Shown here piece by piece: positions 31,451 through 55,137 of a DNA stretch of 64,000 bases. This stretch comes from Minisyncoccia bacterium (lineage in GTDB: Bacteria > Patescibacteriota > Minisyncoccia > Phycocordibacterales > UBA1006), in contig JBGATS010000003.1 in assembly GCA_044229075.1 (NCBI GenBank), forward strand, positions 12,372 to 76,371, given 5' to 3'. A model generated the notes under the pieces. That model worked only from the letters and a program-made list of their open reading frames with translations. It did no database searches and was not told the DNA's origin. The position numbers and the translations under genes are program-made. Positions within the stretch are counted from its first letter, which is position 1. The number at the start of each line of letters is the position of its first letter.

Positions 31451-31455
31451 GTAGT

Positions 31456-31977
31456 TTATTGAGCTTGTATCCCGTTTGTTTCTTGTGGTGATAATGAGGT
31501 ATTTCCAGGGGTAGATTTTGTTTGATCAAATGTTACCGGGCCAACATTTACAATCATTTTTCGTTCTGGACTGTAGATAATTGCCTTCCCCAATTGTGGG
31601 TATACTAATAATTTATCACCCTTTTGTGCGCCAGCAAAAAATGCTTGTTGATTGGTGAGTAGTACAGGATCTTGGATATCAAAAATTGCAGGGACATCAG
31701 ATTCTGGGAGCACCATAATCTTTTTTACTTCTTTTACTAATCGAACAGTTTCTGCTTGTACTCGTTTTTCTGATGCTTTTTTTGAAAGATTAAATTTGTA
31801 ATAGAATCCTGCCAAAACTACAATGATAATTCCAAGAATCGCAAGAATTGTTTTTTGTTTTGTAGAAAAAGAATTTTTTTTCTTACCCACAGACTGTTGA
31901 TTATCGAAACTGTTTTCATGAACAGCTGTGTTAGTAATTTCTTCGTTCATAAATTCGCTCATTTTTTTTGTAGTCAT
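31456..31977 (-). CDS. membrane-anchored hypothetical protein (173 aa)
   Basis: TM helix ILAILGIIIVVLAGFYY followed by a soluble domain. Confidence 0.4.
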   Translation of the reverse strand: MTTKKMSEFMNEEITNTAVHENSFDNQQSVGKKKNSFSTKQKTILAILGIIIVVLAGFYYKFNLSKKASEKRVQAETVRLVKEVKKIMVLPESDVPAIFDIQDPVLLTNQQAFFAGAQKGDKLLVYPQLGKAIIYSPERKMIVNVGPVTFDQTKSTPGNTSLSPQETNGIQAQ

Positions 31978-31999
31978 AAATAAATATAATAGACATTAA

Positions 32000-33367: not shown

Positions 33368-33434
33368 TACTTATAAGTATATCATAAAAACATTATTAGA
33401 AAATACTATTCTTGATAGAGGGAAAACAAGGCCG

Positions 33435-33463
33435 TAAAAAAAGCCACTGTCAAGTGGTTTTTT
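33435..33463. terminator. rho-independent terminator
   Basis: aaaaaaagccact-gtca-agtggtttttt. Confidence 0.6.
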
Positions 33464-33470
33464 ATAGTTT

Positions 33471-35765
33471 TTATTTACCGCAACTATTATTAATCAATGA
33501 TCGAGTAATAGGCCCTACGAGTCCATCTTGATCGGTACCAAGGAATTTTTGCATTCTCTTGATAGCCCCATCAGTAATGGGACCGAGAATACCATCAACT
33601 GGTCCGCTATTGAAACCAAGTCTGTTCATGTGTGTTTGGAGTATTTTTACTTCACGAAGAATTTCTTTATTCGCAATAGTTACTCGAGAATAATTATTAA
33701 TACGACCATTACGAGCACCCATTTTCATATTTTGGGTAATTAATAAATCACTTGAACACTGTCCTGGATTTCCAAGGATTGGTGTTGTACTTGTAATTAC
33801 AGGAGAAGAAGTTGTAGTATTTGGTCTCGGTGTACAGAATGTAGTAATTGTTGTAGAACAATACTGAACTCCACCTCCAGATGAAACAGAGGGTGCTATA
33901 TAATTAAAATTACCTGTTACTGACGGCGAAGCCCCTCCTGCATTTGTTTGAATTATTGTAATAACTGCAGGGTTTGCAGAAAGAGTAATCGGTGTTGTAT
34001 AGGTTCCACCTATAGCACAAACTACTGTAGTTGGGTTTGGCGTAAGAGCACTTGAAGTAAGGGTTACAGTTGCACCTGCTTCACATGTACCACTTGCGGT
34101 GCCAGCTGTTGCTGACGTTGGGGTAATTGTCACTGTTGGCACACTTGGGATAAATGTTACTGTTCGTGTAATAATATTTGAATTCGTATCTTGTCGATTT
34201 CCTATACTATCAATAACTCCTGTTGGCGAAATGCCAAATGGAATCGATACTGTAAGTGGTCCACTTGCTATTGGTGTAATATCAACAGTATACGGACCTG
34301 ACCCTGACCCAACAATATTTGAAGCGGTTCCATTCGTCACAGAAATATCTGAAAGAGTAAGTTCTGAAATTGATTCATTTGGAGTAATAGTAACGGTAAA
34401 TAATCCTGTCACTGTTGCTGGCGCTGTTGTTGAGAGTACAATTATTGGTGCTGTTGCGTCGATTGTAAACGACGAAAGCGTAAGGGTATTTGAAATATTA
34501 CCCGCAGCGTCTGTTACTGTGATAGTACATGCTACATAGGTACCGTTTGCAAGTGCATTTAATGTTATTGTATTGCTTCCCGCCGTTGCTGTTGTGGTAG
34601 CACTTGAGCAAGAACCTCCATAGGTAATAGTCCCTGCCTCGTTAGTAGTAAATGTATAGTTTGGGGTAGTATCGTTGGTAGGAGTTGTGACTGCAGTTAC
34701 TTCTGAGATGGTGGGTGTGGTAGTATCGTAGGTAACAGTATTATCAGTGCTTGTTGCTACTAGATTCGGATTTCCATTTACGTCGGTCACCATATTCGCT
34801 GCAAGTGATACGATAATCGTTCCATTTCCTGTAGTAGTAACAGGAATAGTCCACGTAATATTGTCAGTTGTTGTAGGTGTTCCTACGGTTCCAGCACCTG
34901 TTCCTGATAACACAATATCACTTGCAGTAAGTGTTGCAGGATTAATTGCTTCAGAAAAAATAGCTGTAAAGCTTAGCGCGCTGTTATTAGTTGGATCTGC
35001 TTGCCCACCTGATTGGTTGATAGTTACTGTTGGCTGTGTTACATCAAAAGTACATGCACTTGCCCCATAAGGAGTAGTATTATTTACCCAGTTACTACTG
35101 TTTGCAAGCGACCCAAGAAGTGTACTTGAAAAAAATCCCGCTTCTATACAACTATACTGAAAATTATCAGGAGAACCCAGAGATATTGCCGTTGTTCCAA
35201 GTGAAAGCGGTGATGGGACCCACGAATTGTTCGATGATGGTGGAACACTTGAAGTCCATGTCGTAGCACCTGCCCATCCAACACCATAAATAAACAAAGG
35301 TACCGCGGCTGTCCCTTGAAAAACAAGAAGGTTGTCTCCACTTGTTGCAAAATCCATAGTATTGGAACCGCTTGCAACACCCAAGGCTCCTGTTGCACCA
35401 TCAATCGAAAACATGTCCCATGTTCCTGGAGCGCCTGCAATTAAAGAGTCATCAAAATGGACAATGGTTCCTGCAGTAATTGCGGACGGTGCCGTAAAAC
35501 GAACAACTCCCTCGGAAAGTCCTGACCGCCAAAAAGGAACCCCCAGTGAACCATCCCAACCTTTATCAGTAAAATAAATTACTGTACCTGCATCAATATC
35601 AACCCGAGATACGAAATCAAATCCATTTGTTGATGGGTAAGTACCTGTGGCATTTGCAGTGATAATAACAAGATCACCTGGTAATAATACTGTTGCAGCA
35701 AAACTAATACGCGGAAGTATTACCAACGCAAGAACTGCAAAAAATGTAATTAATATTTTTTTCAT
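33471..35765 (-). CDS. secreted T/S-rich Ig-like-repeat surface protein with canonical C-terminal peptidoglycan-binding domain (PG_binding_1-like)
   Basis: Signal peptide MKKILITFFAVLALVILPRISFA. Long T/S/V-rich beta-repeat region. C-terminus VKILQTHMNRLGFNSGPVDGILGPITDGAIKRMQKFLGTDQDGLVGPITRSLI matches PG_binding_1. Confidence 0.6.
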   Translation of the reverse strand: MKKILITFFAVLALVILPRISFAATVLLPGDLVIITANATGTYPSTNGFDFVSRVDIDAGTVIYFTDKGWDGSLGVPFWRSGLSEGVVRFTAPSAITAGTIVHFDDSLIAGAPGTWDMFSIDGATGALGVASGSNTMDFATSGDNLLVFQGTAAVPLFIYGVGWAGATTWTSSVPPSSNNSWVPSPLSLGTTAISLGSPDNFQYSCIEAGFFSSTLLGSLANSSNWVNNTTPYGASACTFDVTQPTVTINQSGGQADPTNNSALSFTAIFSEAINPATLTASDIVLSGTGAGTVGTPTTTDNITWTIPVTTTGNGTIIVSLAANMVTDVNGNPNLVATSTDNTVTYDTTTPTISEVTAVTTPTNDTTPNYTFTTNEAGTITYGGSCSSATTTATAGSNTITLNALANGTYVACTITVTDAAGNISNTLTLSSFTIDATAPIIVLSTTAPATVTGLFTVTITPNESISELTLSDISVTNGTASNIVGSGSGPYTVDITPIASGPLTVSIPFGISPTGVIDSIGNRQDTNSNIITRTVTFIPSVPTVTITPTSATAGTASGTCEAGATVTLTSSALTPNPTTVVCAIGGTYTTPITLSANPAVITIIQTNAGGASPSVTGNFNYIAPSVSSGGGVQYCSTTITTFCTPRPNTTTSSPVITSTTPILGNPGQCSSDLLITQNMKMGARNGRINNYSRVTIANKEILREVKILQTHMNRLGFNSGPVDGILGPITDGAIKRMQKFLGTDQDGLVGPITRSLINNSCGK

Positions 35766-35824
35766 AGTATATAAATTATATCATAATAATAAAAAACACC
35801 TAACAGTGTTTTTTATTCATCTAT

Positions 35825-38467
35825 TTAATTTTTTACTACATTTCCATTATCAAGCTTCGTCTCACCTTCACTACATCCAGCATGGTAGTTTGCAAGATTT
35901 CGCGTAGATTGATACCAGTGTCCTGTTGGTTTTGAAAGTTTCCAAGGAATTAATACCTTATCAGCATATTTATTTTGATATTGCTCTACTGCCTTCTTTG
36001 TTTGTGGACCAAAAACTCCTGAAATTGGTAATTTTATTCCTAAGTGTTCATTGAGAAATTCTTGCATCTTTTTAACCTCAAAAATTCCATTTTTTCCATC
36101 ACGATCACCATACCGCATATATTGAGTAAAATATGGACATGATTTTTGGTCTTTTATTAATTCTGCAGCATTAGAATTTAACGTGGATGAATTTACTATA
36201 TTCCAACCCAGTACTGCTATCATTCCTCCACCAGAACCTGATGTTATGGTTGGAAGAGAGTAATTAATAGTGAGTGCATTGGAAGCTGTTGCATTTGTAT
36301 TACTTGCTCCATCAGTCACACTCCCTGCAAGAATTTGTACCGTTATTGCTCCTGGGGCTATAGGTGTAATGGTAACCGCATAGTTACCAGACCCATCAGG
36401 TCCGACGAGGTTTGATGCCGTGCCGTTGGTTACCATTAAATCAGAAAGCGTAAGTCCGGTAATTGATTCACTTGGGGTAATGGTTACGGTGAATGGAGCT
36501 GATACTGAGGCTGATGAAGTTGCAAGAGTAATAGTCGGCGCAGTTGTATCAGATGGTACTGATGCAATAACCAACACACTTGTCCCGTCTCCTGTTTGAT
36601 TTTCTGTCGTACCAATATTACCAGCGGCGTCATGCGGAATGATTTCAATATTGGTAAGCGCTTGGCCATATATCATTCCTATGGTAAGCGATGCGGCTAG
36701 TACCGTACATGTATACGGATCAGTAACGACTGACGGAGCGGTACATATTGCTGCAACACCGCCAACAGTAATTGTCGATGTGGCAAGGTCAAGAATCTCA
36801 TCAGAAATAAATGAGAGGGTTACACTATCAGAACCTGAAGTTGCTTCAAAGCTTGGACTTGTCCCTGAAGGTCCTGAGATACTCACACCACTGATTACTG
36901 GGGCCGTTGTATCGCCGGCATCTGCAATAATAGTAGTAAGATTTGCAGGAAGTGAGAGACTTGAGTAATTTGTATCTGGTGAAGTAATTGCAATAAATTC
37001 TACGACACCTGTATGAGTACCTTCTGGTACCCCATCAACAACTGGAGTCACTGTAATTTCTTGTCCGAGATTCCAAGTATTACATGGCTCAAACGGTGAA
37101 ATACCAGGTGTTATTGACATGCTTGCAGGTACAAAACAAACTCCAGATACTGGATTACCATCTTTAGTTAACTCCAACTGTCCATCAGTATTCGTAAATG
37201 CTATTTCTACAATATCTGTTGGTTCATTTGATAAACCCATTTGAAATGTTGTAGCGACTGGTCCGGTTTCATTTATATTTGCAAGGTTTGGTGTTGGTGA
37301 AACCCATACCCCAGCAGTTTGTGGAAGTGTAGCCGTGAGGAAGATACTCAGCGTATTTCCATGATTTACCGCTGCAGCATCAGGAAGACTATCTCCATCA
37401 AAATCATTTACAGCAATTCCAAGAGGACTAAAATTCACCGTATAAGGAACTGGTGCATCAAATGTTAGATCACCATTACCCAGGGCAACCTGCACTCCTC
37501 CTGTTGATGTAGCCGAAGCATCTGACCATAAAACATCTAAATTTCCATCACCATCAAAATCCACTATCTTTGAATAATATGCTGAGCCTGGATATGTTTG
37601 ATGAATAATTGATCCATCCAAAGAAACAATACTCATTCCATCATTAGGAGAAGTGACTACTAATTCATAAATACCATCATTGTTAAAATCAGCAGTATTT
37701 ACACCGTACGGATTAGTTGATGCAAAGCTATAATCAAAATCAAAATTTCCAGATCCATCGTTTCGATATGCTTGAATTTGACTTTGGTTTTCATCTGCAA
37801 TAATGATATCTTTCCATCCATCACCTGTGTAATCAAATGCAGTCATTGCTTTACCTCCATGACCAGAACCGGTACCTCCTGCTGTCGCATAAGAAAATAC
37901 TCCTGACCCATTGTTCGTATACACCTCGAACGCGCTTACATTTTCTGTGCCGATAATAACATCGTTATCTCCGTCATTATCCATATCAGCAAGAGTTAAA
38001 TCTCCTTGACGAGTTCCATCTGTGTTACTTAATGCAACTACATCAAAAGCACCTGTAAACCGTACTCCTGCTCCTGTATTTTTATATATTTGGAGTTGTC
38101 TCAAATTACTATTCCCCACAACAATATCAACATCTCCATCGCTATCGATATCACCAACAGCAAGCCCCCATTCATAGGAAGCACCGTCGCCAAGAATTAA
38201 CGGTGCCTGAAAGGTTCCGTTTCCGTTTCCATATAAAATTCCGATTCCTGCCATACTTTTTCCATCGGTTACTACAAGATCGTTTTTTCCATCTGCATTA
38301 AAATCTGCAGATTCTACGAGGTGCATATCGCCGCCTAGAATAGTTGGAGTTTGTGGATTAAATGGATATGCGGACACAGTATGGTATCCAAACAGAGCAA
38401 TAACAATTACTCCTGCACATAGCCCTGCCAGCTGATAATATAATTTTTTTATATTTGGATTACCCAT
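35825..38467 (-). CDS. secreted FG-GAP/VCBS-repeat (beta-propeller) surface protein with Ig-like domains and C-terminal PG-binding-like domain
   Basis: Repeated FNADGKNDLVVTDG, VGDIDSDGDVDIVVGNSN, DMDNDGDNDVIIGTEN, DFDGDGNLDVLWSD (FG-GAP Ca-binding repeats). C-terminus CPYFTQYMRYG...VKKMQEFLNEHLG...PQTKKAVEQYQ...PWKLSKPTGHWY...AGC. Confidence 0.6.
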   Translation of the reverse strand: MGNPNIKKLYYQLAGLCAGVIVIALFGYHTVSAYPFNPQTPTILGGDMHLVESADFNADGKNDLVVTDGKSMAGIGILYGNGNGTFQAPLILGDGASYEWGLAVGDIDSDGDVDIVVGNSNLRQLQIYKNTGAGVRFTGAFDVVALSNTDGTRQGDLTLADMDNDGDNDVIIGTENVSAFEVYTNNGSGVFSYATAGGTGSGHGGKAMTAFDYTGDGWKDIIIADENQSQIQAYRNDGSGNFDFDYSFASTNPYGVNTADFNNDGIYELVVTSPNDGMSIVSLDGSIIHQTYPGSAYYSKIVDFDGDGNLDVLWSDASATSTGGVQVALGNGDLTFDAPVPYTVNFSPLGIAVNDFDGDSLPDAAAVNHGNTLSIFLTATLPQTAGVWVSPTPNLANINETGPVATTFQMGLSNEPTDIVEIAFTNTDGQLELTKDGNPVSGVCFVPASMSITPGISPFEPCNTWNLGQEITVTPVVDGVPEGTHTGVVEFIAITSPDTNYSSLSLPANLTTIIADAGDTTAPVISGVSISGPSGTSPSFEATSGSDSVTLSFISDEILDLATSTITVGGVAAICTAPSVVTDPYTCTVLAASLTIGMIYGQALTNIEIIPHDAAGNIGTTENQTGDGTSVLVIASVPSDTTAPTITLATSSASVSAPFTVTITPSESITGLTLSDLMVTNGTASNLVGPDGSGNYAVTITPIAPGAITVQILAGSVTDGASNTNATASNALTINYSLPTITSGSGGGMIAVLGWNIVNSSTLNSNAAELIKDQKSCPYFTQYMRYGDRDGKNGIFEVKKMQEFLNEHLGIKLPISGVFGPQTKKAVEQYQNKYADKVLIPWKLSKPTGHWYQSTRNLANYHAGCSEGETKLDNGNVVKN

Positions 38468-38762: not shown

Positions 38763-41700
38763 TTATTCAGTAGGAGTATCCCCTGATCCACCAGAACCAG
38801 TGTTAGTCGGGGGAGGTGTTGTACCCCCTGATCCCGAATCTCCTGTTCCTGAAGTACTACTTGTCGGATCTGTAATATCTCCACCAGACGTGTCGCCAGT
38901 ACCAGTATCACCAGAAGGCGTAGAATCGCCATCTGTTCCAGTTCCTGTTGATGAAGTATCCCCACCACTAGGGGTAGATGATCCACCAGAAACAACTGTT
39001 CCTTGTCCATTCATCATTGATTCCAATTGGTCACCATTTACACAGTATTCAGATCCATCTGCTTTTTTCAAACAAATTTGTTCTGAACGAACCTTTTTCG
39101 CAAAGAGTTCATTAATTCCGTTTGTTGCACTCGCGAGCCAGTCACGGAGCTTGGTAACAAATGTTGAATCAGTTCCATCTGTGTTAAATTCAAAGTTCTC
39201 AATCTGATTAATATTTAGATCAAGCTCTTTGATTGCCGCGATAACAAATGGGATTGATGATGATTCATTAATAGCTAAATACCCGTCAGGATTAGTTACA
39301 ACACCTGCTGGAATTAATTGTTGAAATTCCTGTGCAAGGAAACCATCGTAATGAGTTCCTGTTCCATCCCCGATGAAATTATAATTCACCGGACGAAGTC
39401 CTGTAATTTTTGCAAGTGCATCTGCAGTATTGATATCCACTACATTTTCCTTGAGTCGTGCATCAGACGTACATGCCCAGTTTGCACCAGCACCAGGATT
39501 GAATGTACACACTCCGGCTGCAGTATTGTCATCAACTGTGATCAGATTCCCGTTTGGAGTCGTAGCAGAACCGATCGATACTAATGCTGATGTTGCTGCA
39601 CTATCAACTGTCAGTAATCCGCTTGTTGTTGTTGTGCCAATACCTAATCGTCCTGCAGCATCCAGTCGCATACGCTCTACACCTGCGGTACTGAATCCAA
39701 CAATATCAGCGCCCGGACTAAATATTCCTGTATTAGTATCTGCAGTCCAACTATACGCAGGTACAGCAGCAGTCCCAAGTCCTGTTAATTGAACACCACC
39801 TGTAGACGTTTCTTGAAGAAGTTTCACCCAAGATGTCCAAACTCCTCCATTTCGTCCACGCATAAAGATACCATTATTAACATTATTTGAATATGGAATA
39901 CCTAATTGGGTAGTATTACCAGTTCCATCTTTACTACTATATTCAAAGTTAAACGGATGATAGTAACTTCCTGATCCAGGACCATTTGTTGCGGTACCTA
40001 GAAGTAAGGTGTATCCCTGACCTGATCGTGAATTAGTAACATCATTCCAATCAACAACACCTGCTGTAGTTACCGCCCCAAAACCTCCTTGAATAATTCC
40101 ATTCACTTCAAGTTTTTGTGTTGGTGCTGCAAATCCTAATCCAAGATTTCCTGCTGCAGTAAGTGTCATTCGAGTCGCGCCTGATGTTTCAAAATTGAGA
40201 TTTTGAACATCATTCGTACCAAGTGTTGCTGCTGCTCCAAAACTATTTCCATTTTGGATAAACATACCAGTCGTTCCATTGATATCAAATTTACGAAGAT
40301 CACCATTTGCGTCTGAATAAACTAATCCATTCGTACCACCGAGAGCAAGTCCTGAAATTGATGTTCCTCCGAGTGAATTAAATCGAATGTTTGCAGTCCC
40401 TGCAGTACCTGCAACATGGAATAATTGTGATGGTGTTGTAGCACCAAGACCAATACCGACATTACCGCCATTTGGGTTAAACATCATTGGGTAATTAACC
40501 GCAAGTGTCCCCTGATTCGTTACCTGCATCCATGCACCATTAGCGCCATTGATACCCGTATCAATAACTACACCTGAAGCATCGCCAAATCGTGATACAT
40601 GTCCAGCACCTTGTACAGTTCCAGAAGTTGCGGCAAAACTTGAGCCGCTATCGTTTACAAATAATCGTGCAGTTGTAAGAGGTGTCGCACCAATACCAAA
40701 ATTACCAATAGTATCAAATGTTGCACGGGTCACACCAGCTGTTTCAAATCCAAGATTAAACAAGTCATTCGTACCGAGGGTTGCTGTTGTTCCAAAACTA
40801 TTTCCGTTTTGGATAAAGTCACCATTCGTAATACTTGCCATTGATCGTTTATACAATTCGCCGTTTGTATCTACAAACAATATTCCGTCATTTGCTCCCA
40901 TGGTATAGGCCGTAGTTATTGCCGGACCAGAAAGATGGGTAATACGTACATTTGGTGTTCCGGCTGCCGCTGTCTGAGCAACACCATTTACATGAAATTG
41001 ACGTGTAGGAGCAGTTGTACCGATACCTACATTCCCACCGTTAGGGTTAAGCATAAGTGGATATGTCAAAGACAAATCTCCAGTATTAGTTGCTTGAAGC
41101 CAGGTACCTGATCCTCCATTACCACCAATATCAAGTGTTGCGCTTGTCGCTGCGCGAAGTCGTGTAATAAATCCTGCAGATTGAGCAGTTCCTGAAGTAC
41201 TTGGGAATGCGTTTCCAGTTCCTACTACTTCTAGTTTTGCCTGTGGGATTGTGGTATTAATACCAAAATTACCACCTGCATCCAGTCGCATACGTTCTGT
41301 ACCATTAGTTGACCATGCTTGAATATCTGCGCCTGGACTCCACCAACCGTTGTTAGTATCCCCAACAAAACTATGTGATGGAGTACCAGCAATACCCAGT
41401 GCGGTAAACATACGTCCTGTAGTATCTATTTGGAATAAGTCACCGTTTCCTACGGTAAAGAGTGAAGCAGGTGTTGTATCACCAATACCTACAAACCCAC
41501 CAGCAGTAACACGCATACGTTCGGTGTTACTTGTTCGTGTGACAAAATCAACTGCATCAGTGGTACCAATAAAATTGGTTGTTGCAAGTGTTCCTGCATT
41601 TCCTGTTATCATCCAACCGTTATTAGCATTTGCCAGAGCAACCCAACCAGTGTTCGTTCCAAGACCTGAAGCCTTGTAATACATAATTCCATTAGTAATA

Positions 41701-44700
41701 TCATTTGCAATATCACCCACTGATCCAGTTACAAAAGCATTGGGGCTACTATTGGTAATAAATGTTTGATAATCACCCCCTTGGTTTGCAAGTGTTTCAA
41801 TTGGGATATTCATTGTAAGTCCACTATTTACATGTAATTTTGTAGCAGGGGTATTTGTTCCAATTCCTAAACGACTATTGGTATTATCCCAGAAGTATTG
41901 CGCATTGTTTTGTGAAAGTAGTCCTCCTGCACCTGCAAAGAATACTGATCCTGGGGTCATCGTCGCAAAAGTTGTATTTCCATTAAATGTCGCTGCACCT
42001 GCAAAGGTTTTTGCTCCAGCAAAGGTTTGTGTTCCTGTTGAGACGAGTCCTGGGAATGTTGCGTCCGCAGTCTGCATAAAGAGGTTTGTTCCAGAGATTG
42101 CAGCACCATTTGCAGATTTTGTAGTTCCATCAAGTGTTCCAATAGTACTCACTCCTGCTGTGATTGCAACTGATCCTGCAGCGGTAAGGCGCCCCTGCGC
42201 ATCTACCGTAAATGTTGGTATGTTAGTTGCAGATCCATATGAACCTGGAGTAACCGCAGTGTTTGCAAGACCTACGGTTGCCGTTGCATTTTCAGCGCCG
42301 GTACCTGTTACGGTAAGGCCTGTCCCAGAAAGAATGGTCGCAACATAGTTTCCGGTGGTGTCAGTACCCAAGGCTACTGCATCAGGCTGTACTACGGTTG
42401 CACCAAGCGTACCTCCGATATCACCCGCAAGGGTAAGTCCAGAGATAGGAGTACTTGAAGCAATTCCATTGACTGTTGAGGTAAGATTACCCGCAGCAAA
42501 AGAAAGAGTATTACTGTTAACAATAGGAGCCGTTACTGAAATACCGTTTACGACGGAGGTCAACGTGTTTGCCGATGACCCAAGAGTATGAGTCATTGCT
42601 ATTGATCCAGCTGCAGTGAGACGTCCTTTACTATCTACGGTAAATGTTGGAATACTCGTAGCTGATCCATATACTCCAGCAGTTACTGGTGTGTTTGAAA
42701 GAGTAAGTGATGTACCTGTTCCCAATACTGCACCGGTTCCACCTGTTATAGAAATATCAGAGGTGGTTGAGGTAAGGTTTCCACCAGCAAGTGATGAAAG
42801 AGCTATAGATCCTGCACCTGTTAATCGTCCTTGTGCATCTACTGTAAAGGTAGGAATAGATGATGTTGAACCATAAGATCCAGCAACTACTCCTGTGTTG
42901 GTAAGAGAGATGGTTCGATCTGCTGAAAGATTTCCTCCCCCTGTGAGACCAGTTCCTGTGAGTATTTGTCGAGTACTATCTACTTTTGCATTAAAGGTTG
43001 CCCAATCAGTAGGTGTAAGAAGACCTCGATTTACAGCCGTAGCAGAAGGAAGATTTAAAGTATGTACCCCTGCTGCAGTTGTAATATTTGCATTGGTTCC
43101 TAGAGATCCAATAACAATACTTTGGTTTGGATTAGTATCACCATTAATAGAGGTAATAACTCCTAATGATGAAAGCGGTTGCCATGAATCAGTTCCTCCA
43201 GCACCACCAGAAACCAAGACCATACCTGATGATCCACGTGATCCTGATGGGGCAAGTCCTCCGGTACCATTCATACCATAATACATATCACCATTACTAT
43301 CGATGATATATTTGTTCGCATCGTTAGTTCCTAGGATTACAGCATTACCCCAATCACCAACAAGGTTTGAACCAATCGTAATTGCCCCGTTTTTAACAAG
43401 ATTATTTCCAAAACCAAATGCTGCTGTACCTGACACACCTGATCCTGAATTATTAAGACCAATCATTACAGAGGTATCAGAATTATCAATTCCATTACCA
43501 TATCCAAATTGGTATATTAATTTACCATTATCCTTACTTCCATTATCCATACCAATTTGTGTTTGGTATGAAGATCCTCCAGAAATACTGTTTCCTTGCC
43601 CAAATTGTTGCGTATTTTGTCCATCAGTACTATTTAATTCACCTACTTGATAAGTACTTGTTCCTGATGAACTGTTGTTGTCACCAAAAATCATATTCAA
43701 CGAACCTGACATTGATGTACCTGTACCAAACGCAAGATTCTGTCCTGCAGTATCTACAATCGTTGGTTGGTTAAGTGTTCCTCCAAGGATAATTTCTGTT
43801 CCTGTATTGGTAAGTCCATTATTCACTGCAACTAATCCAGTAACATCAGACCATGTAGGTGAATTACCTGCTCCATTAGAAACAAGTATCTGTCCACTGT
43901 TTCCTGCTGTTCCACTTGCAATAAGATCATTTAAAAGAATGACTGAATCATTGAATGATTTATCACCACCAAATGTTTGAGCACTTGTCGTAACAAGACC
44001 TCGCGCAAGAGTTGAAGCGTTAGGAATATTAAGAGTTAGAGTTCCTCCAAGAGATGCAGGAGATCCAGAAACATTCACATCAGTTCCCGTTGTTCCTGTT
44101 GCAAGACCAATCGTCCCTAATCCAGAAAGAGGCGTGGTTGCTGCAACTCCGTTAATAGTAGAAACAAGGTTCCCACCTGCAATAGCAAGCGTATTCGCAT
44201 TAATAATAGGAGCTGATGTAGAAACACCATCAACAACCGATGTCATAGTATTTACTAATGAACCCAATGTATTCGTAAGAGTACGATTCCCAGCAAGGGT
44301 AAGTCGTCCTTGGGCATCAACGGTAAAGCTCGCAATAGACCCAGGAGCTCCATACGAACCAGCAGTAACGCCCGTGTTATTCAATCCTACAGTAATATCA
44401 CCAAGTCCTACCAAGCGGTTAGTAAGTGCTCCTCCAAGTGTCATTCCTGTTCCTTGGATAATTGATCCAGCTGATCCAGTCGTTGCACAGGTAGGGCATG
44501 AAATTTCACCGGTTGTGTTGTTGTACGCAATAGGTGCAAGTCCTGAGAGTGCTGCACGCGCTCGTGCATTGGTGAAATAGAGATTTCCGTTTTCAGGAAC
44601 AACTGAAGTGTCAAGTGTCTGCCAAGTTTTATCACCACGCCAGTATTGCGCCGTAGTTCCTGCAACAATTGCAGGTTCTTTGCTATTGAAATTAATCCAA

Positions 44701-47700
44701 TCCGCAGGTGAAAGAGCTCCACGATTTATGTTTGAAGCGGTTGGAATATTAATCGTATGAGTTGATCCAGATGAAGCAATATTTACATCAGTTCCAGATG
44801 TTCCTGCTGCGAGAGTTTGTGCAGTTGCAGTAAGTCCGTTCAGTGATGTAATCGCAAGTGATGAAATAGGAGTCTGCCCTGCAAGCGTAAGACGTCCCTG
44901 AGCATCAACGGTGAAGGTTGGAATATTTCCTGTAGTTCCATATGACCCAGCTGTCACACCTGTAGTCGTAAGGTCAAAATTATTTGCGGTACGAGCAATA
45001 CCACCACTGGCAGTCATAATGTCAGTTACCGTATTTCCTGTACGTGAAAGTCCACCGGTAAAGGTAAGTACATTTTCCTTGTTATTAAATGTCGTCCAAT
45101 CTGTACTTGTTAAGAGTCCGTTTTGAGCATTAGTTGCATTTTGAATATCGAGCGTTGTCCCTGCACCAAGTACTGCCCCTGATCCTCCACTGATAGTGAT
45201 CGCACTATTTGGAGTTGTAAAGTTTGATCCAGACATCGCTGAAAGTGCTGTTGACCCTGCTGCAGTGAGACGACCTTTTGCATCCACAGTAAAATTAGGA
45301 ATCGCTGTAGTCGTTCCATATGATCCAGGGGTTACTGTAGTGTTCGAGAGTGTAAGCGTTGCACCAGAACCAAGCACGGCACCTGTTCCGCCAGTTACTG
45401 CAATATCAGCTGTTGTTGATGCAAGATTTGATCCAGACATCGCTGAAAGTGCTGTTGATGATGCAAGTGTAACACGACCATCTTGGTCGACAGTAAATTG
45501 TGGGATTGATGACGCACCACCATACACACCTGCAGTAACCCCAGAACTTGTAAGTTCGGCAGGCCCTACTACGTCATTATTGAGTTGGATATTTCCAAGA
45601 TTTCCAGAAACATCACCTGCTACAGCAATAGTGTTTGTTGAAACAGTTCCAGCAGCGGTAAGACGCCCTTGTGCATCTACAGTAATAAGTGGGATACTTG
45701 TTGCAGATCCGTATGAACCAGCAGTAACGCCCGTGTTATTCAATCCTACAGTAATATCACCAAGTCCTACCAAGCGGTTAGTAAGTGCTCCTCCAAGTGT
45801 CATACCTGTTCCCTGGATAATTGATCCAGCTGATCCAGTCGTTGCACAGGTAGGACATGAAATTTCACCTGTTGTTGAGTTATATGAAATTGGAGTAATT
45901 GCAGAAAGAGCTGCGCGTGCGCGAGCGTTGGTAAAGTAGAGATTTACTGTTCCTTCTGTAAGGTCATCCGTTGTTTTTGTAGCTAATGCTGCGTCGAAAC
46001 GAACTGGTGTCCAATACAAATTAGTTCCTTCGGGCACTACGGTTGTATTGAGAGTTTGCCATGTTTTATCGCCACGCCAGTATTGTGCAGTAGTTCCTGG
46101 TACAATTGCGTTTTCCTTGTTATTAAAGGTATTCCAATCAGTTGCGAGAAGAAGTCCGTTCTGGGTTGGTCCTGCAGATTGAATATCAATCGTTGCACCT
46201 GATCCAAGTACTGCACCTGCTCCCCCGGTGATAGTAACTGCAGTGTTAGGTGAAGTAAGGTTTGATCCAGTAAGTGAAGAAAGTGGTGTTGAACCAGCAT
46301 TGGTTAATCGTCCCTGAGCATCCACAGTGAAGAGTGGGATTGAAGAGGTTGAGCCATATGTTCCAGCAGTGACACCTGTAGAAGCCAAGTCAATAGTGGT
46401 TGCAGCATTTTCTATCCCAGAACCAGTCACGATCAACGCACCACTTGCAGGGGCAAGGGTTGCAATATAGTTTCCAGTCGTGTCAGTAGCAAGTGCTACC
46501 GCATCAGTTCCAATGACGGTTGCACCAAGGGTTCCAGTTACATCACCTGCAAGTGCCATTGATGAAGTGCTTGACCATGCAGGAATACCTGTTGGACTTA
46601 CACTTAATACTTGTCCAGTAGTTCCAATAGGAAGTGCAGAGAGCGTGTTTGCACCTGAAGCAAAGAGGATATCACCGAGGGTATATGAAGAAAGTCCCGT
46701 TCCCCCCTTTGTTTCATCGAGTACTCCTGAAATATTATTGAGTGAAAGTGCTGACTCATTAACGTCAACAGAAAATGGTTGTAATACCGCACCAATTGGT
46801 GTACCGCTGAGGATGACCTTACTTGATCCAGCAGTTACATCATATGTTCCATTTGCTGCCATAATTGCAGCAGCATCAAAACGAGTCCAGTCGGTAGAGG
46901 TAAGTAAACCATTTTGAGTAGCAGTTGCGTTTTGTATATTGATAGTTACTCCACTACCAAGTACTGCACCTGATCCGCCGGTGATAGAAATAGCACTATT
47001 CGGAGTAGTGATATTTGATCCTGACATTGCAGTAAGTGCCACTGATCCAGCAAGACCTAGTCGTCCTTTCGCATCAACTGTAAATGTTGGGATGGATGTA
47101 TTTGATCCATATGAACCTGCGGTTACGCCAGTACTTGAAAGAGTGACCGCTGTTCCTGTTGGGTTGAGTACCGCTCCTGCCCCACCTATTACCAAAATAT
47201 CTGAAGTAGTAGAAGTAAACGATCCACCCGATCCAGATGTCACACATGATGGACAAGAAATTTCACCTGTCGCATTACTGTAAACAATCGGACTGGTTGA
47301 GTAGAGTGCATTACGTGCACGAGTATTTGTGAAATACAAATTAGATCCTTCAGGTACTACTGAAGTATCAAGGTTTTGCCAAGTTTTATCACCGCGCAAA
47401 TATTGCGCTGTTGTTCCTCCTGAAAGCGCATTATCCAACGCATCAAATCGCTGCCAATCGAGTGCAGTAAGGAGTCCGCGATTAGCTGATGAAGCTGATG
47501 GGATATTAAACGTGTGCACACCTGCAACTGTAGACACGTTAAAATCGGTACCTGTAGTACCGGTTGTAAATGTTTGGATTGATGCCGTATCACCATTGAG
47601 TGAGGTGATACCTCCACCAGCAGCCCCAGGAATGGTTACGGTAACCGTCCCACCCACGTTGGTTGCGGTAACCCCTGCTCCGACAAATTGCAGTTTCAAT

Positions 47701-47927
47701 GTGTTGGTGGTGAGCGATGTTGTTTCATCGATCGTCTCCAGGATTGCTGGAAAACAATTGGTGTCGAGTGGGCCGCAGGGTTCAACCGATTCTGCGCCTG
47801 GATCGATGGTTTGACCAACGGTAAATGGATTGGTTCTTGTAACCGCAAATGTTGCAACAGGTACACTCACAATACCAATGATTGCTACAAGTGATACGTA
47901 TCGCATCACGGAAATTATTTTTTTCAT
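38763..47927 (-). CDS. giant (3054 aa) repetitive cell-surface fibre protein, tail-fibre-like, with C-terminal Peptidase_S74 intramolecular chaperone domain and Gly/Thr/Ser/Asp-rich tail
   Basis: N-terminal signal/[30 protein letters not shown]. About a dozen copies of [24 protein letters not shown]. Four copies of TTAQY(L/W)RGDKTWQ(N/T)[19 protein letters not shown]. Near the C-terminus, [63 protein letters not shown] matches the S74 chaperone-of-endosialidase domain. Confidence 0.8.
44350..44577. repeat. near-identical internal DNA repeat within the giant gene (copy 1 of an about 1.36-kb-period duplication)
   Basis: An about 200-nt stretch ccatacgaaccagcagtaacgcccgtgttattcaatcctacagtaatatcaccaagtcctaccaagcggttagtaagtgctcctccaag... 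is repeated almost exactly at 45709-45936. It encodes ...[52 protein letters not shown]. Confidence 0.8.
45709..45936. repeat. near-identical internal DNA repeat within the giant gene (copy 2)
   Basis: Same sequence as 44350-44577 with a few substitutions. The plus-strand shadow ORFs 44134-44580 and 45196-45939 share a 51-aa identical stretch because of it. Confidence 0.8.
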
Positions 47928-48044
47928 AATGTGCTAATAAAAAATTAAACTTGGCTAATAATAAACATTATTATAAATGATAATAAAAAAACATACAATG
48001 AACCTGTGGATAACTTATAAGAAAAAAACCACTGATGCGGTTTT

Positions 48045-48317
48045 TTATTCTTGATCAATACTATAATCCTGTTCAATTCCTTGCTCTTCTTCAATCTCAC
48101 GCAATTGTTTAGTAAAATTCCGAAGCGTTCTCCATATTTCTGCTTTTTGTGAATCATCCTTGGGGAGATTTTTTAATTCTGATAATCGATCTAATGCATT
48201 ATTAATACTTTCTTTTATGTGAAATAATCGATCTTCTGGTTGTTGATCAAAAGATTCTTCTAATTTATCAACACTTTTATTGTTCTCTACTTTTTTACTA
48301 ATGGTATTTTCAAACAT
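48045..48317 (-). CDS. hypothetical acidic coiled-coil protein (90 aa)
   Basis: ORF only. Overlaps another small ORF. AT-rich. Confidence 0.25.
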   Translation of the reverse strand: MFENTISKKVENNKSVDKLEESFDQQPEDRLFHIKESINNALDRLSELKNLPKDDSQKAEIWRTLRNFTKQLREIEEEQGIEQDYSIDQE

Positions 48318-54698: not shown

Positions 54699-55136
54699 TT
54701 AATTAAGATTTAAATAATTTTTAGCTTCTAAGGTTGTTGTAAATAATAATTCGGGATAAATATTCAAAAATTCATTGATGCTATTTTCTAGAACAAACTC
54801 AATTAATAATTCATAATTAGTCTTTATATAATTTATTAATAGCTTTTCATTAAGTTCTAAATCTAACGGTAAAAAATCATACTCGTTATTATTTATTTTA
54901 AATGTGAACCTAGTTCTTATATCTCCATCTGAGTCCTTAGGGTATTCTAATGTAGGATGCAAAGCTTTAAAAACATAGCCCAAATTAAAATAATATGCAC
55001 TAGAATATGCTGATCTTTGTATTCCTACTACACATATTATTTCACTATTTTGTTTATAATAAAAATTACCTTTTTTTATAAAGCCTAATAATTTAAAGTA
55101 ATTTAATATTTGTTTTTTTAATTCTTTTATGTCCAT
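54699..55136 (-). CDS. putative immunity protein for the adjacent RHS toxin (145 aa)
   Basis: Immediately downstream (2-nt gap) of the toxin module, same strand, AT-rich. The assignment is from context only. Confidence 0.35.
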   Translation of the reverse strand: MDIKELKKQILNYFKLLGFIKKGNFYYKQNSEIICVVGIQRSAYSSAYYFNLGYVFKALHPTLEYPKDSDGDIRTRFTFKINNNEYDFLPLDLELNEKLLINYIKTNYELLIEFVLENSINEFLNIYPELLFTTTLEAKNYLNLN

Positions 55137-55137
55137 A

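What the first reader, a model, noticed from the sequence alone, without database searches (positions are those of the whole stretch)
38763..47927. Giant 3054-aa tail-fibre-like surface protein with C-terminal Peptidase_S74 intramolecular chaperone domain
A single 9.2-kb ORF has an N-terminal signal/TM. It carries many [24 protein letters not shown] beta-repeats and four copies of TTAQY(L/W)RGDKTWQ.L(D/N)TSVVPE..NLYFTN.RAR.AL, a motif reminiscent of phage tail-fibre repeats. Near the C-terminus (about 39210-39470) is a clear match to the S74 chaperone-of-endosialidase domain (...GLRPVNYNF...[19 protein letters not shown]...[23 protein letters not shown]), followed by a ~150-aa G/T/S/D low-complexity tail. 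S74 domains autocleave after folding trimeric phage fibres, so this protein probably forms a trimeric, self-processed cell-surface fibre. It could be a host-cell adhesin or a domesticated phage fibre.
Basis: partly seen in the sequence, partly recalled or inferred. Interest (0 to 1): 0.7.

Follow-up and report, generated by a model that had tools for sequence, protein, structure and literature searches.

The report
Giant phage-like surface fibre in CPR
A tiny, probably host-dependent CPR bacterium encodes on its own chromosome a 3,054-residue secreted fibre built from phage tail-fibre parts and ending in a self-cleaving folding domain, which resembles the fibres Bdellovibrio uses to recognise prey and so may be how this bacterium recognises its host cell.

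Summary
ORF 38763-47927 (-) encodes 3,054 aa with a Sec-type signal peptide, repeats, a genuine Peptidase_S74 domain (45.3 bits, cutoff 22; SDARLK dyad at S2821/K2826) and a low-complexity tail. Two corrections: the TTAQY module has 3 copies, not 4, and the tail is ~86 aa, not ~150.

The context is a Paceibacterota (CPR) chromosome with no phage genes, and the locus is syntenic in two relatives.

The distal 800 aa carry eight capping-loop units homologous to Bdellovibrio MAT prey-recognition fibres and phage tail fibres. The 1,800-aa stalk uses modules shared with real phage fibres.

It is not a strict MAT member. It lacks the MAT N-domain and instead has a CPR-specific motif (PGETLDPxCxPGxxNC) at the mature N-terminus. 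That motif defines at least 1,778 protein clusters, and 61% of the long sampled members end in S74. Copies from CPR also carry a conserved post-S74 extension and tail.

A ~95-aa aromatic-rich cassette near the tip is swapped between orthologues (33% identity where flanks are 80-93%).

Most likely it is a Sec-exported, S74-matured trimeric adhesin roughly 0.2 µm long. Trimerisation, cleavage and target are inferred, not shown. It is a new variant of a known kind.

The parts
47970..48046 (-). Upstream control region. A hairpin plus T-tract (AAAAAACC-GCATCAGT-GGTTTTTT, ~48022-48046) ends a small upstream ORF. An AT-rich stretch with TATAAT at 47970-47975 follows, ~43 nt before the ATG. No obvious Shine-Dalgarno sequence.
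   Evidence: Read directly from the sequence. Inference only.
47844..47927 (-). Sec-type signal peptide, aa 1-28 (MKK / hydrophobic core / ATFA|V).
   Evidence: Hydropathy maximum at aa 4-30 and no other TM segment. Aligns with the signal peptides of relatives.
47754..47828 (-). CPR-type N-terminal Cys-loop motif at the mature N-terminus, aa 34-58 ([25 protein letters not shown]). Family consensus: Y.PGETL(D/E)P.C.PG..NC.
   Evidence: G38, T40, P43, C51, P53 and C58 are invariant in 23 sequences. The motif is found only in loci labelled as CPR or unclassified, among 160 loci. A profile of it finds 1,778 representative clusters, nearly always at the protein's N-terminus among the 150 listed.
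42156..47615 (-). Stalk, aa 105-1924. It holds 17 copies of a ~65-aa unit. Copies end either in NGLL..DW..F or in [12 protein letters not shown].FTVDAxGRL (10 copies). The run is interrupted by 3 B modules and by the mid-region.
   Evidence: Iterative HMM map. Modules are shared with phage and cellular fibres. Foldseek matches S74-bearing proteins of uncultured Caudovirales.
47232..47426 (-). B module copy 1, aa 168-232 ([14 protein letters not shown]...NLYFTN...GEISCPSC).
45834..46106 (-). B module copy 2, aa 608-698, with an internal partial duplication (NLYWT then NLYFT).
44475..44669 (-). B module copy 3, aa 1087-1151.
43164..43955 (-). Unique G/N/S-rich mid-region, aa ~1325-1588. Its repeat pattern looks like a YadA head, but no match is significant.
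   Evidence: No internal repeat partners. Best PDB match is 9gh4 at E = 3.1, not significant. No Pfam hit.
39591..41918 (-). Distal beta-helix region, aa 2004-2779, with 8 capping-loop units ([LVF]G[IL]G.T.P...L) and two ~190-aa tandem repeats.
   Evidence: Direct PDB hits to Bd3182 and Bd2133. Profile hits to Bd2133 (7.8e-14), Bd1334, Bd3182, Bd2439 and phage fibres 8jov and 6f45.
39813..40091 (-). Variable aromatic-rich cassette, aa 2613-2705. Candidate specificity determinant.
   Evidence: 33% identity to the L161 orthologue and 32% to L001, against 80-93% in the flanks. L161 and L001 carry an extra beta-helix repeat at this position. P0002 shares the cassette at 85% but has a 31%-identical S74. 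Aromatic content is 14% against 6% for the whole protein.
39468..39590 (-). Pre-cleavage segment, aa 2780-2820, with C2807 and C2819. It would form the mature C-terminal tip.
   Evidence: Position relative to the dyad. Low monomer pLDDT, as expected for a part that folds only in the trimer. Inference.
39450..39467 (-). Autoproteolysis motif SDARLK: S2821 (nucleophile and P1' of the predicted cleavage site) and K2826.
   Evidence: S, D and K are at least 90% conserved in 66 sequences. The motif aligns on ADLRAK of MyRF ICA 7dc3. It fits the SDxxxK motif of S74-type MATs.
39195..39467 (-). Peptidase_S74 intramolecular chaperone core, aa 2821-2911.
   Evidence: Pfam PF13884, 45.3 bits, cutoff 22. 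PHROGs 7841, 1210 and 33119. AF2 pLDDT 88-95 in this region. Foldseek to 7dc3 at probability 1.0 and to 3gw6 at E = 0.02.
39024..39194 (-). Post-S74 extension, aa 2912-2968: a helix plus a C2952-C2962 hairpin ([18 protein letters not shown]). It is the most conserved part of the protein.
   Evidence: 93-96% identity to orthologues and 81% to P0002. Predicted helix and hairpin. At least 96 residues follow S74 in 8 of 10 CPR copies, against a median of 5 in 48 viral copies.
38766..39023 (-). G/T/S/D-rich low-complexity tail, aa 2969-3054.
   Evidence: Translation. Similar acidic or P/T/S tails end most members of the N-motif family.

Best explanation
The gene encodes a chromosomally encoded, Sec-exported giant fibre of a Paceibacterota (CPR/Patescibacteria) bacterium. 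The proposed sequence of events is as follows.

1. The signal peptide (aa 1-28) directs export and is removed. This exposes a Cys-loop motif that is conserved and specific to CPR, at the new N-terminus. That end is proposed to be cell-proximal and to dock the fibre on a surface element of the cell. This step is inferred.
2. The C-terminal S74 intramolecular chaperone (aa 2821-~2950) brings three chains together. It templates folding of the upstream triple beta-helix, with its eight capping-loop units, and then of the long stalk. This is inferred by homology.
3. The Ser2821/Lys2826 dyad then cuts the chain before S2821. That releases the chaperone, the extension and the low-complexity tail, about 234 aa in all. 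This is also inferred by homology.
4. The mature fibre is aa 29-2820. Scaling from the Bd3182 model puts its length at roughly 0.2 µm, comparable to the size of a CPR cell.
5. Its distal end carries a swappable aromatic-rich cassette (aa 2613-2705). The fibre is proposed to bind a surface structure of the bacterium on which this episymbiont lives. That would make it the counterpart of a phage receptor-binding protein or a Bdellovibrio MAT fibre.

What is shown here: the domain identities, the conserved catalytic residues, the cellular context, the family distribution and the tip mosaicism.
For: - The ORF is intact over 9.2 kb.
- S74 scores above Pfam's cutoff. The dyad is conserved and the fold matches ICA/ICD structures.
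- The distal region is homologous to Bdellovibrio MAT fibres Bd3182, Bd2133, Bd1334 and Bd2439 and to phage tail fibres 8jov and 6f45.
- For MAT fibres, trimerisation and S782 autocleavage were shown experimentally, surface or vesicle localisation was shown for some members, and a prey-handling role was proposed (PMC10769870).
- A signal peptide is present here and in all CPR relatives examined, but not in the three giant phage fibres examined.
- The whole window is housekeeping, with no phage genes.
- The host is CPR: the GAPDH 90% cluster is named Paceibacterota.
- Synteny (GAPDH - fibre - FG-GAP/Big_12) holds in two related contigs.
- The N-motif family is large and mostly carries S74 and capping loops: 1,778 clusters, 51 of 83 with S74 and 49 of 83 with capping loops. 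Named members are almost all CPR.
- Relatives are concentrated in Patescibacteria and Bdellovibrionota, besides Bacteroidota and phages. The known lifestyles of those first two groups are episymbiotic and predatory.
- The tip cassette is swapped between orthologues while the flanks stay conserved.
Against: - No trimer was modelled or observed. Monomer models are poor outside the S74 core and one stalk unit.
- Cleavage is not demonstrated.
- Nothing shows how, or whether, the fibre stays attached to the cell. There is no LPXTG signal, lipobox, second TM segment or known wall-binding domain in the protein.
- The part predicted to be discarded, the post-S74 extension, is the most conserved segment at 93-96%. 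The simple 'chaperone is thrown away' model does not explain this.
- The orthologues in two related assemblies are interrupted by many frameshifts, so the fibre may be dispensable.
- 23 of 79 genomic relatives are in Bacteroidota, which are not known episymbionts. The modules therefore do not by themselves signal a predatory or episymbiotic lifestyle.
- The target is unknown.
Confidence: 0.6

Rival explanations
1. It is a phage tail fibre: part of a prophage, a cryptic phage remnant or a tailocin, not a cellular surface protein.
For: - S74 and the stalk modules are typical of phage fibres.
- PHROG hits include a PblB-type receptor-binding protein and a long tail fibre distal subunit.
- More than 370 relatives lie on IMG/VR contigs, including a 2,851-aa fibre next to terminase and portal genes.
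- BFVD matches exist.
Against: - The 64-kb window has no phage structural, lysis, integrase or tail genes.
- The neighbours are GAPDH, DUF2177 and an AddA-like helicase. The same synteny occurs in two related genomes, one of them a 627-kb contig.
- The protein has a Sec signal peptide and a CPR-specific N-motif that the three giant phage fibres examined lack, and no viral locus carries the N-motif.
- The post-S74 extension is absent from all 48 viral S74 copies.
Confidence: 0.04
2. It is a surface fibre, but not for host recognition. It could be a structural coat or spacer, a self-aggregation or biofilm adhesin, or a decoy or shield against phages. Its variability would then reflect immune or phage pressure rather than host range.
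For: - It has the same export and maturation features as the main explanation.
- It lies next to three other secreted proteins with PG_binding_1, Big_12 or FG-GAP domains, which suggests a general envelope locus.
- The orthologues are frameshifted in two relatives, so it is not essential.
- Relatives occur in free-living Bacteroidota.
- Giant CPR surface proteins are linked to a 'fibrous' cell surface only in general terms (PMC8080830).
Against: - The closest characterised homologues, MAT fibres and phage receptor-binding proteins, bind other cells' surfaces.
- The cassette swap sits exactly at the distal tip next to the S74 cleavage site. That is the pattern of receptor-binding proteins.
- No evidence for self-binding was found.
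Confidence: 0.25
3. The topology is reversed or no cleavage occurs. The S74-like domain would act only as a permanent trimerisation module. The conserved extension and low-complexity tail would be the wall-spanning, cell-proximal anchor, and the N-terminal Cys-loop motif would be the distal tip.
For: - The extension is the most conserved segment at 93-96%.
- Long P/T/S/acidic C-terminal tails are typical wall-spanning regions of monoderm surface proteins (general knowledge).
- Copies from CPR consistently keep this tail, unlike phage copies.
Against: - The Ser-x4-Lys dyad is intact here and retained in all 10 CPR copies inspected.
- There is no sortase signal or TM segment at the C-terminus.
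- In every characterised S74 protein the chaperone is removed (PMC10769870).
- An invariant N-terminus with a variable region near the C-terminus fits the N-terminus being the constant, cell-proximal end.
Confidence: 0.1

Closest known systems
Bdellovibrio bacteriovorus MAT (mosaic adhesive trimer) fibres, S74 subgroup, e.g. Bd3182 (PDB 8ojn/8onb/8onc; Caulton et al. 2024, PMC10769870)
   Same: - Chromosomally encoded in a bacterium that lives at the expense of other bacteria.
- A signal peptide.
- A long fibre with beta-helix capping-loop units (V-G-G/N-pi-x-x-P-x-x-x-L here as [LVF]G[IL]G.T.P...L, 8 copies).
- C-terminal S74 with SDxxxK.
- Mosaic, swappable tips.
- Direct sequence and profile hits.
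   Different: - It lacks the conserved ~130-aa MAT N-domain. The motif taken here as its marker (LTYQGRI..DGTPLEY) is found only in Bdellovibrionota loci. It has a ~25-aa CPR Cys-loop motif instead.
- It is three times longer: 3,054 aa against ~1,000.
- About 1,800 aa of its stalk use modules (unit65, B) that are rare even in its own family (3 of 83 each).
- It has an extra conserved helix, a Cys hairpin and a low-complexity tail after S74.
- The host is a monoderm-like CPR bacterium, not a diderm.
Phage tail fibres and tailspikes matured by a C-terminal intramolecular chaperone (K1F endosialidase ICD 3gw6; T5 L-shaped fibre pb1 4uw8; S16 gp37 6f45; 8jov)
   Same: - S74 domain with a Ser/Lys dyad at the C-terminus of a long repetitive fibre.
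- The stalk modules are shared with fibres on bona fide phage contigs, some of them also giant at 2,553-2,851 aa.
   Different: - No phage context.
- It has a Sec signal peptide instead of a virion-attachment N-terminus.
- Viral copies end a median of 5 residues after the S74 envelope, while this protein continues for ~143 residues.
MyRF (myelin regulatory factor) ICA domain, 7dc3
   Same: Best structural and sequence match for the S74 core. The catalytic motif is aligned.
   Different: MyRF is a eukaryotic membrane-bound transcription factor. Only the self-cleaving trimerisation domain is shared.
Trimeric autotransporter adhesins (YadA family); JGI gives this name to family member P0225
   Same: Long trimeric surface fibres used for adhesion. 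The G/N/S-rich mid-region has a superficially YadA-head-like repeat pattern (not significant).
   Different: - No YadA-type C-terminal membrane anchor and no Hep_Hag, HIM or YadA Pfam hits.
- The export logic differs: Sec plus an S74 chaperone, not type Vc secretion.

Membership tests
Peptidase_S74 / intramolecular chaperone auto-processing domain (PF13884) | Sequence match to the family model above the curated threshold | tested here: met
   45.3 bits against a cutoff of 22, E = 1.1e-11, aa 2821-2876 covering profile positions 1-57 of 58.
Peptidase_S74 / intramolecular chaperone auto-processing domain (PF13884) | Catalytic Ser-Lys dyad in an S-D-x-x-x-K motif at the start of the domain | tested here: met
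   SDARLK at 2821-2826. S, D and K are at least 90% conserved in a 66-sequence alignment. The motif aligns to the catalytic motif position of MyRF 7dc3.
Peptidase_S74 / intramolecular chaperone auto-processing domain (PF13884) | ICD/ICA fold | tested here: met
   AF2 model with pLDDT 88-95 over the core. Foldseek: 7dc3 at probability 1.00 and E = 1.6e-5; 3gw6 at E = 0.02.
Peptidase_S74 / intramolecular chaperone auto-processing domain (PF13884) | Trimerisation and autoproteolytic release of the domain | not testable with these tools
   No multimer prediction or experiment is available. Inferred from homology only.
Bdellovibrio MAT fibre family (Caulton et al. 2024) | N-terminal signal peptide | tested here: met
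   Hydrophobic aa 4-30 with an A-x-A-like site.
Bdellovibrio MAT fibre family (Caulton et al. 2024) | Conserved ~130-aa beta-rich N-terminal domain directly after the signal peptide, present in all 21 MATs | tested here: not met
   The N-terminal motif shared by Bdellovibrionota fibres (L[TS]Y[QH]GRI...) is taken here as the MAT N-domain. It is absent from this protein and from all CPR loci. The protein has a different ~25-aa Cys-loop motif. HD100 MAT N-domain sequences were not at hand, so the comparison used fibres from Bdellovibrio loci L048, L058, L072, L029 and L026.
Bdellovibrio MAT fibre family (Caulton et al. 2024) | Beta-helix fibre with V-G-G/N-pi-x-x-P-x-x-x-L capping loops | tested here: met
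   8 units at aa 2004-2779. Direct and profile hits to Bd3182, Bd2133, Bd1334 and Bd2439 structures.
Bdellovibrio MAT fibre family (Caulton et al. 2024) | C-terminal S74 with SDxxxK (S74 subgroup) or an alternative adhesive tip | tested here: met
Bdellovibrio MAT fibre family (Caulton et al. 2024) | Surface display and a role in recognising or handling another bacterium | not testable with these tools
   Inference from the known lifestyle of CPR and from homology.
Phage tail fibre (virion component) | Encoded in a phage structural gene module | tested here: not met
   No phage genes in 64 kb. Housekeeping synteny is conserved in L001 and L161.
Phage tail fibre (virion component) | Cytoplasmic assembly, with no signal peptide and an N-terminus that attaches to the virion | tested here: not met
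   A signal peptide is present here. It is absent in phage fibres L098, L101 and L106.
Trimeric autotransporter adhesin (type Vc) | C-terminal YadA-like beta-barrel anchor and Hep_Hag/HIM repeats | tested here: not met
   No such Pfam or NCBIfam hits at E <= 0.1. The mid-region resemblance is not significant.
   aa 34-58, with all six invariant residues present. The protein carries a 6-residue insertion before the first Cys, shared with P0004, P0147 and P0165.
   Present here. Among 83 family representatives of at least 400 aa, 51 have S74 and 49 have capping loops, and most end in a low-complexity tail.

The most novel reading that the evidence does not exclude
Patescibacteria (CPR) possess a family of Sec-exported, S74-matured trimeric fibres that is widespread in the phylum and largely restricted to it. 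The family is marked by its own N-terminal Cys-loop docking motif and a conserved post-S74 extension. These fibres would be the host-recognition organelles of episymbiosis. They would evolve like phage receptor-binding proteins, exchanging stalk and tip cassettes with phages and with the MAT fibres of predatory bacteria, so that the tip cassette encodes host range. The conserved extension that is cleaved off may have a second function, such as assembly or tethering in a monoderm envelope, that phage and Bdellovibrio versions do not need.
Probability: 0.35. Interest if true: 0.8.

Novelty: new variant of a known kind. Interest (0 to 1): 0.6.

Why it matters
How ultrasmall CPR bacteria find and hold on to their specific host cells is largely unknown. 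In the papers retrieved here, only type IV pili have experimental support (abstracts).

This gene shows that a Paceibacterota genome of well under 1 Mb spends 9.2 kb on a fibre built on the same principles as phage receptor-binding proteins and Bdellovibrio prey-recognition fibres. The gene belongs to a family of at least 1,778 sequence clusters with a signature specific to CPR.

If the fibre tips determine host range, several things follow:
- Host range could be read from metagenomes by comparing tip cassettes.
- It could be tested by cassette swaps in the genetically tractable Saccharibacteria.
- It could be linked to gene flow between phages, predators and episymbionts.

The finding also extends the reach of S74 intramolecular chaperones to secreted proteins of monoderm-like bacteria. 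No paper in the searchable library connects CPR with S74 or MAT fibres. Databases label these proteins only as 'tail fiber domain-containing protein'.

Tried and rejected
- The full-length homologue search timed out.
- The search for homologous proteins appears to return only proteins of about the query's length. It therefore gave fragments and could not show full architectures. I worked around this with genome and viral locus scans and the exhaustive representative search.
- Prophage or tailocin origin: rejected, since there are no phage genes in the window.
- Trimeric autotransporter: rejected, since there is no anchor and there are no such repeats.
- Strict MAT membership: rejected on the N-domain.
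- The downstream PG_binding_1/FG-GAP/Big_12 genes as conserved fibre partners: they are conserved only in the close relatives L001 and L161, not in other CPR fibre loci.
- A PDB profile search with the stalk modules gave no hits.
- Pfam at E <= 10 on the stalk, the mid-region, the tip and the extension gave only a sub-threshold BppL_N hit.
- Monomer AF2 of the stalk was confident for only one ~55-aa unit.
- Long-read homopolymer errors as the cause of the frameshifts in the L161 orthologue: not supported, since 0 of 36 indels lie in homopolymers.
- The downstream terminator scan found none.
- My first dyad regex wrongly suggested that Saccharibacteria copies had lost the dyad. Inspection shows Ser-x4-Lys is retained in all of them.


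Full report

Yes. A single ATG-initiated ORF runs from 47927 down to 38763 on the minus strand and encodes 3,054 aa.

- The protein is rich in T (15.5%), G (14.7%), A, S and N. It has 12 cysteines arranged in six local pairs.
- The only strongly hydrophobic segment is aa ~4-30. It has the layout of a Sec signal peptide: MKK, a hydrophobic core, then ATFA|V.
- Pfam places Peptidase_S74 at aa 2821-2876, with E = 1.1e-11 and 45.3 bits against a cutoff of 22. PHROG families for a PblB-type receptor-binding protein and a long tail fibre distal subunit cover aa 2820-2911.
- The [11 protein letters not shown].FTVDAxGRL repeat occurs 10 times.
- The TTAQY[LW]RGDKTWQ module occurs 3 times, not 4. The second copy contains an internal partial duplication, which gives a fourth NLY[FW]T.
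- The C-terminal low-complexity tail is ~86 aa, not ~150. The ~90 residues between the Pfam match and the tail are predicted to be structured.
- The internal DNA repeats are only 60-88% identical, so the long ORF is not a repeat-collapse artefact.

**2. Anatomy**

An iterative HMM map, gives this layout:

| Residues | Feature |
|---|---|
| 1-28 | Signal peptide |
| 34-58 | Cys-loop motif |
| 105-1924 | Stalk: 17 copies of a ~65-aa unit ending in NGLL..DW..F or in the TGVTAGSYG...FTVDAxGRL motif, interrupted by three ~65-aa B modules with a CxxC |
| ~1325-1588 | Unique G/N/S-rich region within the stalk |
| 2004-2779 | Beta-helix region with eight capping-loop units ([LVF]G[IL]G.T.P...L), including two ~190-aa tandem repeats |
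| 2821-2826 | SDARLK |
| 2821-2911 | S74 core |
| 2912-2968 | Additional helix and a C2952-C2962 hairpin |
| 2969-3054 | Low-complexity tail |

**3. Context and organism**

The window is ordinary chromosome. It carries SMC, PBP2, MraW, CorA, CysRS, DnaJ/DnaK, RpoA, S4, EF-G, S7, L2, five tRNAs, GAPDH directly upstream, and an AddA-like helicase-nuclease. No ORF matches a phage structural family.

Exact-sequence look-up shows that the housekeeping proteins come from a 109,372-bp NCBI contig. The GAPDH cluster at 90% identity includes a protein named Candidatus Paceibacterota bacterium. The host is therefore a CPR/Patescibacteria bacterium.

Downstream on the same strand are three secreted proteins with FG-GAP, Big_12 and PG_binding_1 domains.

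The arrangement GAPDH - fibre - FG-GAP/Big_12 recurs in two related metagenome contigs:
- L001 is a 69.9-kb contig.
- L161 is a 627-kb contig, about the size of a CPR genome.

The gene appears to have its own AT-rich promoter region after a terminator-like hairpin (read by eye).

**4. What it is related to**

A sequence search of the PDB with the whole protein returns only two entries. Both are Bdellovibrio fibres: Bd3182 (8ojn, E = 8.5e-4) and Bd2133 (8ond).

A 66-sequence profile of the C-terminal 281 aa hits the following:
- Bd2133 (7.8e-14), and also Bd1334, Bd3182 and Bd2439
- a phage tail fibre, 8jov (1.1e-13)
- MyRF ICA, 7dc3 (6.7e-11)
- phage S16 gp37, 6f45 (1.9e-10)

Caulton et al. 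2024 (PMC10769870) define these Bdellovibrio proteins as MAT, mosaic adhesive trimer fibres. Their features are:
- a signal peptide
- an invariant ~130-aa N-domain
- a trimeric beta-helix with V-G-G/N-pi-x-x-P-x-x-x-L capping loops
- in 13 of 21 cases, a C-terminal S74 with SDxxxK

For Bd3182 they showed self-cleavage at S782, abolished by S782A, and they localised some members to the predator surface.

In my protein S2821, D2822 and K2826 occupy the motif. They are at least 90% conserved in the family alignment and align to the catalytic motif of MyRF. The AF2 model of aa 2690-2970 has a mean pLDDT of 76.7, with 88-95 over the S74 core. It matches the MyRF ICA domain at Foldseek probability 1.00 and then the endosialidase chaperone 3gw6.

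**5. Distribution**

A scan of one genome per species found 295 confirmed relatives. Of the best 79 loci, 27 are CPR, 23 are Bacteroidota (mainly Chitinophagaceae), 19 are Bdellovibrionota and 10 are other or unknown. The CPR loci include Saccharibacteria, Gracilibacteria, Paceibacterota, Taylor-, Nomura- and Peribacteria, and WWE3.

A scan of IMG/VR found more than 370 confirmed relatives.

Module scanning shows free shuffling of the stalk units, B modules, capping-loop units and S74 across these proteins. Some other members are also giant:
- Bdellovibrionales: 4,996 aa
- Saccharibacteria: 3,980 aa
- viral: 2,553-2,851 aa

One such viral fibre (L101) lies next to terminase, portal and virion protein genes, so it is a real phage fibre.

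The AF2 model of stalk aa 100-365 is confident for only one unit. It still matches large proteins of uncultured Caudovirales at 29-41% identity, several of them annotated as S74/ICD proteins. No solved structure matches the stalk by sequence.

**6. What separates the CPR version**

*(a) The N-terminus.*
- The three giant phage fibres examined (L098, L101, L106) have no signal peptide.
- Bdellovibrionota fibres share an N-terminal domain beginning L[TS]Y[QH]GRI..DGTPLEY, which I take to be the MAT N-domain.
- CPR fibres instead have a ~25-aa motif, Y.PGETL(D/E)P.C.PG..NC, a few residues after the predicted signal-peptidase site. G, T, P, C, P and C are invariant in 23 sequences.
- Among 160 loci the motif occurs only in loci labelled as CPR or unclassified.

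A profile of the signal peptide plus motif, searched exhaustively against 1.84 billion representatives, finds 1,778 clusters at E <= 1e-3 and 501 at E <= 1e-10. Among the 150 listed, the match lies at or near the protein's N-terminus, starting within the first ~30 residues in nearly all, and lengths reach 2,526 aa.

Of 83 representatives of at least 400 aa:
- 51 carry S74
- 49 carry capping-loop units
- only 3 carry unit65 and only 3 carry B modules
- most end in an acidic or P/T/S-rich tail

Named members are almost all CPR: Paceibacterota, Campbellbacteria, Minisyncoccia and 'Patescibacteria group'. NCBI calls them 'tail fiber domain-containing protein'. One non-S74 member is named a 'choice-of-anchor ... 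GloVer' protein.

So the window protein is the longest member seen of a large CPR family, longer than any of the 150 listed. It is unusual in having acquired ~1,800 aa of phage-type stalk.

*(b) The C-terminus.* The number of residues after the S74 envelope differs by group:

| Group | Copies | Median residues after S74 |
|---|---|---|
| Viral | 48 | 5 (none >= 100) |
| Bdellovibrionota | 11 | ~43 |
| CPR | 10 | ~125 (8 of 10 >= 96) |

The CPR extension usually includes an LC.KK.DGSE.CV.GDQL-type hairpin. The Ser-x4-Lys spacing is retained in all CPR copies inspected.

**7. Tip mosaicism**

Identity to the L161 orthologue varies sharply by region:

| Region | Identity to L161 |
|---|---|
| Stalk | 75-88% |
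| Beta-helix | 63% |
| aa 2613-2705 | 33% |
| Pre-cleavage segment | 85% |
| S74 | 80% |
| Post-S74 extension | 93% |
| Tail | 57% |

The alignment shows that L161 and L001 carry an extra beta-helix repeat where my copy has an aromatic-rich ~95-aa domain (...[20 protein letters not shown]...[17 protein letters not shown]...[19 protein letters not shown]).

P0002, from another sample, shows the opposite pattern. It shares this cassette at 85% but is only 31-32% identical in the pre-cleavage segment and S74, and 81% in the extension.

The distal cassette and the chaperone therefore have different histories. That is the pattern expected of a swappable specificity determinant.

**8. Mechanism**

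The most likely sequence of events is Sec export, removal of the signal peptide, C-terminal trimer nucleation by S74, folding of the beta-helix and stalk, then autocleavage before S2821.

The mature fibre would be aa 29-2820. Its constant N-terminal motif would sit at the cell and the variable cassette near the far end. Scaling from the ~550-Å model of the ~760-aa mature Bd3182 gives roughly 0.2 µm, which is a rough inference.

Given the episymbiotic lifestyle known for cultivated CPR and the MAT precedent, the likely target is the surface of the host bacterium.

What is shown:
- domain identities
- conserved catalytic residues
- the cellular context
- the family and its distribution
- the mosaicism

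What is inferred:
- trimerisation
- cleavage
- anchoring
- the target

**9. What does not fit**

- The segment predicted to be discarded is the most conserved part of the protein.
- No known wall- or membrane-anchoring signal is present.
- The orthologues in L001 and L161 change reading frame many times while their neighbours are intact. The indels are not in homopolymers. This could be pseudogenisation or strain-mixture consensus error, and it remains unresolved.
- Many relatives are in Bacteroidota, so the modules alone do not mark a predatory or episymbiotic lifestyle.

**10. Novelty**

Searches of the paper library found nothing linking CPR with S74, endosialidase chaperones or MAT fibres.

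The MAT paper's supplementary list of relatives names Bdellovibrio, Micavibrio, Ca. Uabimicrobium, Omnitrophica and Dokdonia, but no CPR.

Giant CPR surface proteins have been proposed as attachment factors only in general terms (PMC8080830).

I rate this a new variant of a known kind. It is an S74-matured mosaic fibre like MAT and phage fibres, but with a CPR-specific N-terminal motif, a conserved post-S74 extension and exceptional length.

Noticed in passing
L161:10001-18580 and L001:1-8126: The orthologous fibre genes in two related JGI metagenome contigs are collinear with the window gene but switch reading frame many times, at least 10 times in L161. The flanking helicase, GAPDH and FG-GAP genes are intact. 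None of 36 indels not divisible by 3 lies in a homopolymer. The cause is either real pseudogenisation or consensus errors in a strain-variable gene.
   Followed up: partly
window 39024-39194 (aa 2912-2968): The helix and Cys hairpin after S74, which should be released with the chaperone, form the most conserved segment of the protein: 93-96% identity between orthologues, and 81% even in P0002, whose S74 is only 31% identical. Its function is unknown.
   Followed up: partly
window 29529-38467 (-): Directly downstream of the fibre gene is a run of secreted proteins. They are an 880-aa FG-GAP + Big_12 + PG_binding_1 protein, a 764-aa Big_12 + PG_binding_1 protein, a 455-aa protein with an acidic double-disulfide repeat, and a 503-aa protein with a sub-threshold PG_binding_1 match (22.2 bits, cutoff 23). 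The run is conserved in close relatives only.
   Followed up: partly
window 54699-55899 (-): A 253-aa protein with a C-terminal Tox-REase-9 restriction-endonuclease-fold toxin domain (E = 3.7e-37). A 145-aa ORF with no family hit follows immediately and could be its immunity protein.
   Followed up: no
window 44001-48000: The 5' half of the fibre gene has a higher GC content (0.44-0.45) than the surrounding genome (~0.38-0.40). This may simply reflect the Gly/Thr/Ala-rich composition, or it may indicate foreign, phage-derived stalk modules.
   Followed up: no
window 48046-48317 (-): A small, acidic, helix-prone ORF of ~90 aa lies between GAPDH and the fibre gene. It ends at a hairpin plus T-tract. 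It is not annotated by any library.
   Followed up: no
window 17376-17972 (-) and 16215-16823 (+): A 198-aa protein matches phrog_12942 (unknown function, E = 4.6e-24). It is the only PHROG hit among the ten unannotated window ORFs scanned against PHROGs. Nearby is a 202-aa protein with a PaaX central Cas2-like domain.
   Followed up: no
L161:4894-6132: In the 627-kb relative, a Transposase_20 gene sits between the helicase and DUF2177 genes, just upstream of the fibre locus. The window has no such gene.
   Followed up: no
L030, L063, L020, L078 (Saccharibacteria and Patescibacteria loci): The S74 motif in these CPR fibres is S-S-x-R-[FY]-K or S-L-L-K-Y-K rather than S-D-x-x-x-K. The Ser and Lys are kept but the Asp is lost. 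Whether these variants still cleave is unknown.
   Followed up: no
L019, L021, L024, L037-L039, L041, L044, L052, L061 and other Bacteroidota loci: 23 of the 79 best genomic relatives are in Bacteroidota, mostly Chitinophagaceae, Sediminibacterium and Ferruginibacter. Their proteins are large and carry unit65 or B modules, and only 2 S74 copies were detected in these loci. Whether they are prophage-borne or cellular (e.g. T9SS cargo) was not examined.
   Followed up: no
tool behaviour: the search for homologous proteins returned only proteins up to roughly twice the query length. Giant relatives were therefore invisible to it, and many hits were contig-end fragments. The exact 3,054-aa sequence is also absent from the protein collection, although its neighbours are present.
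   Followed up: partly
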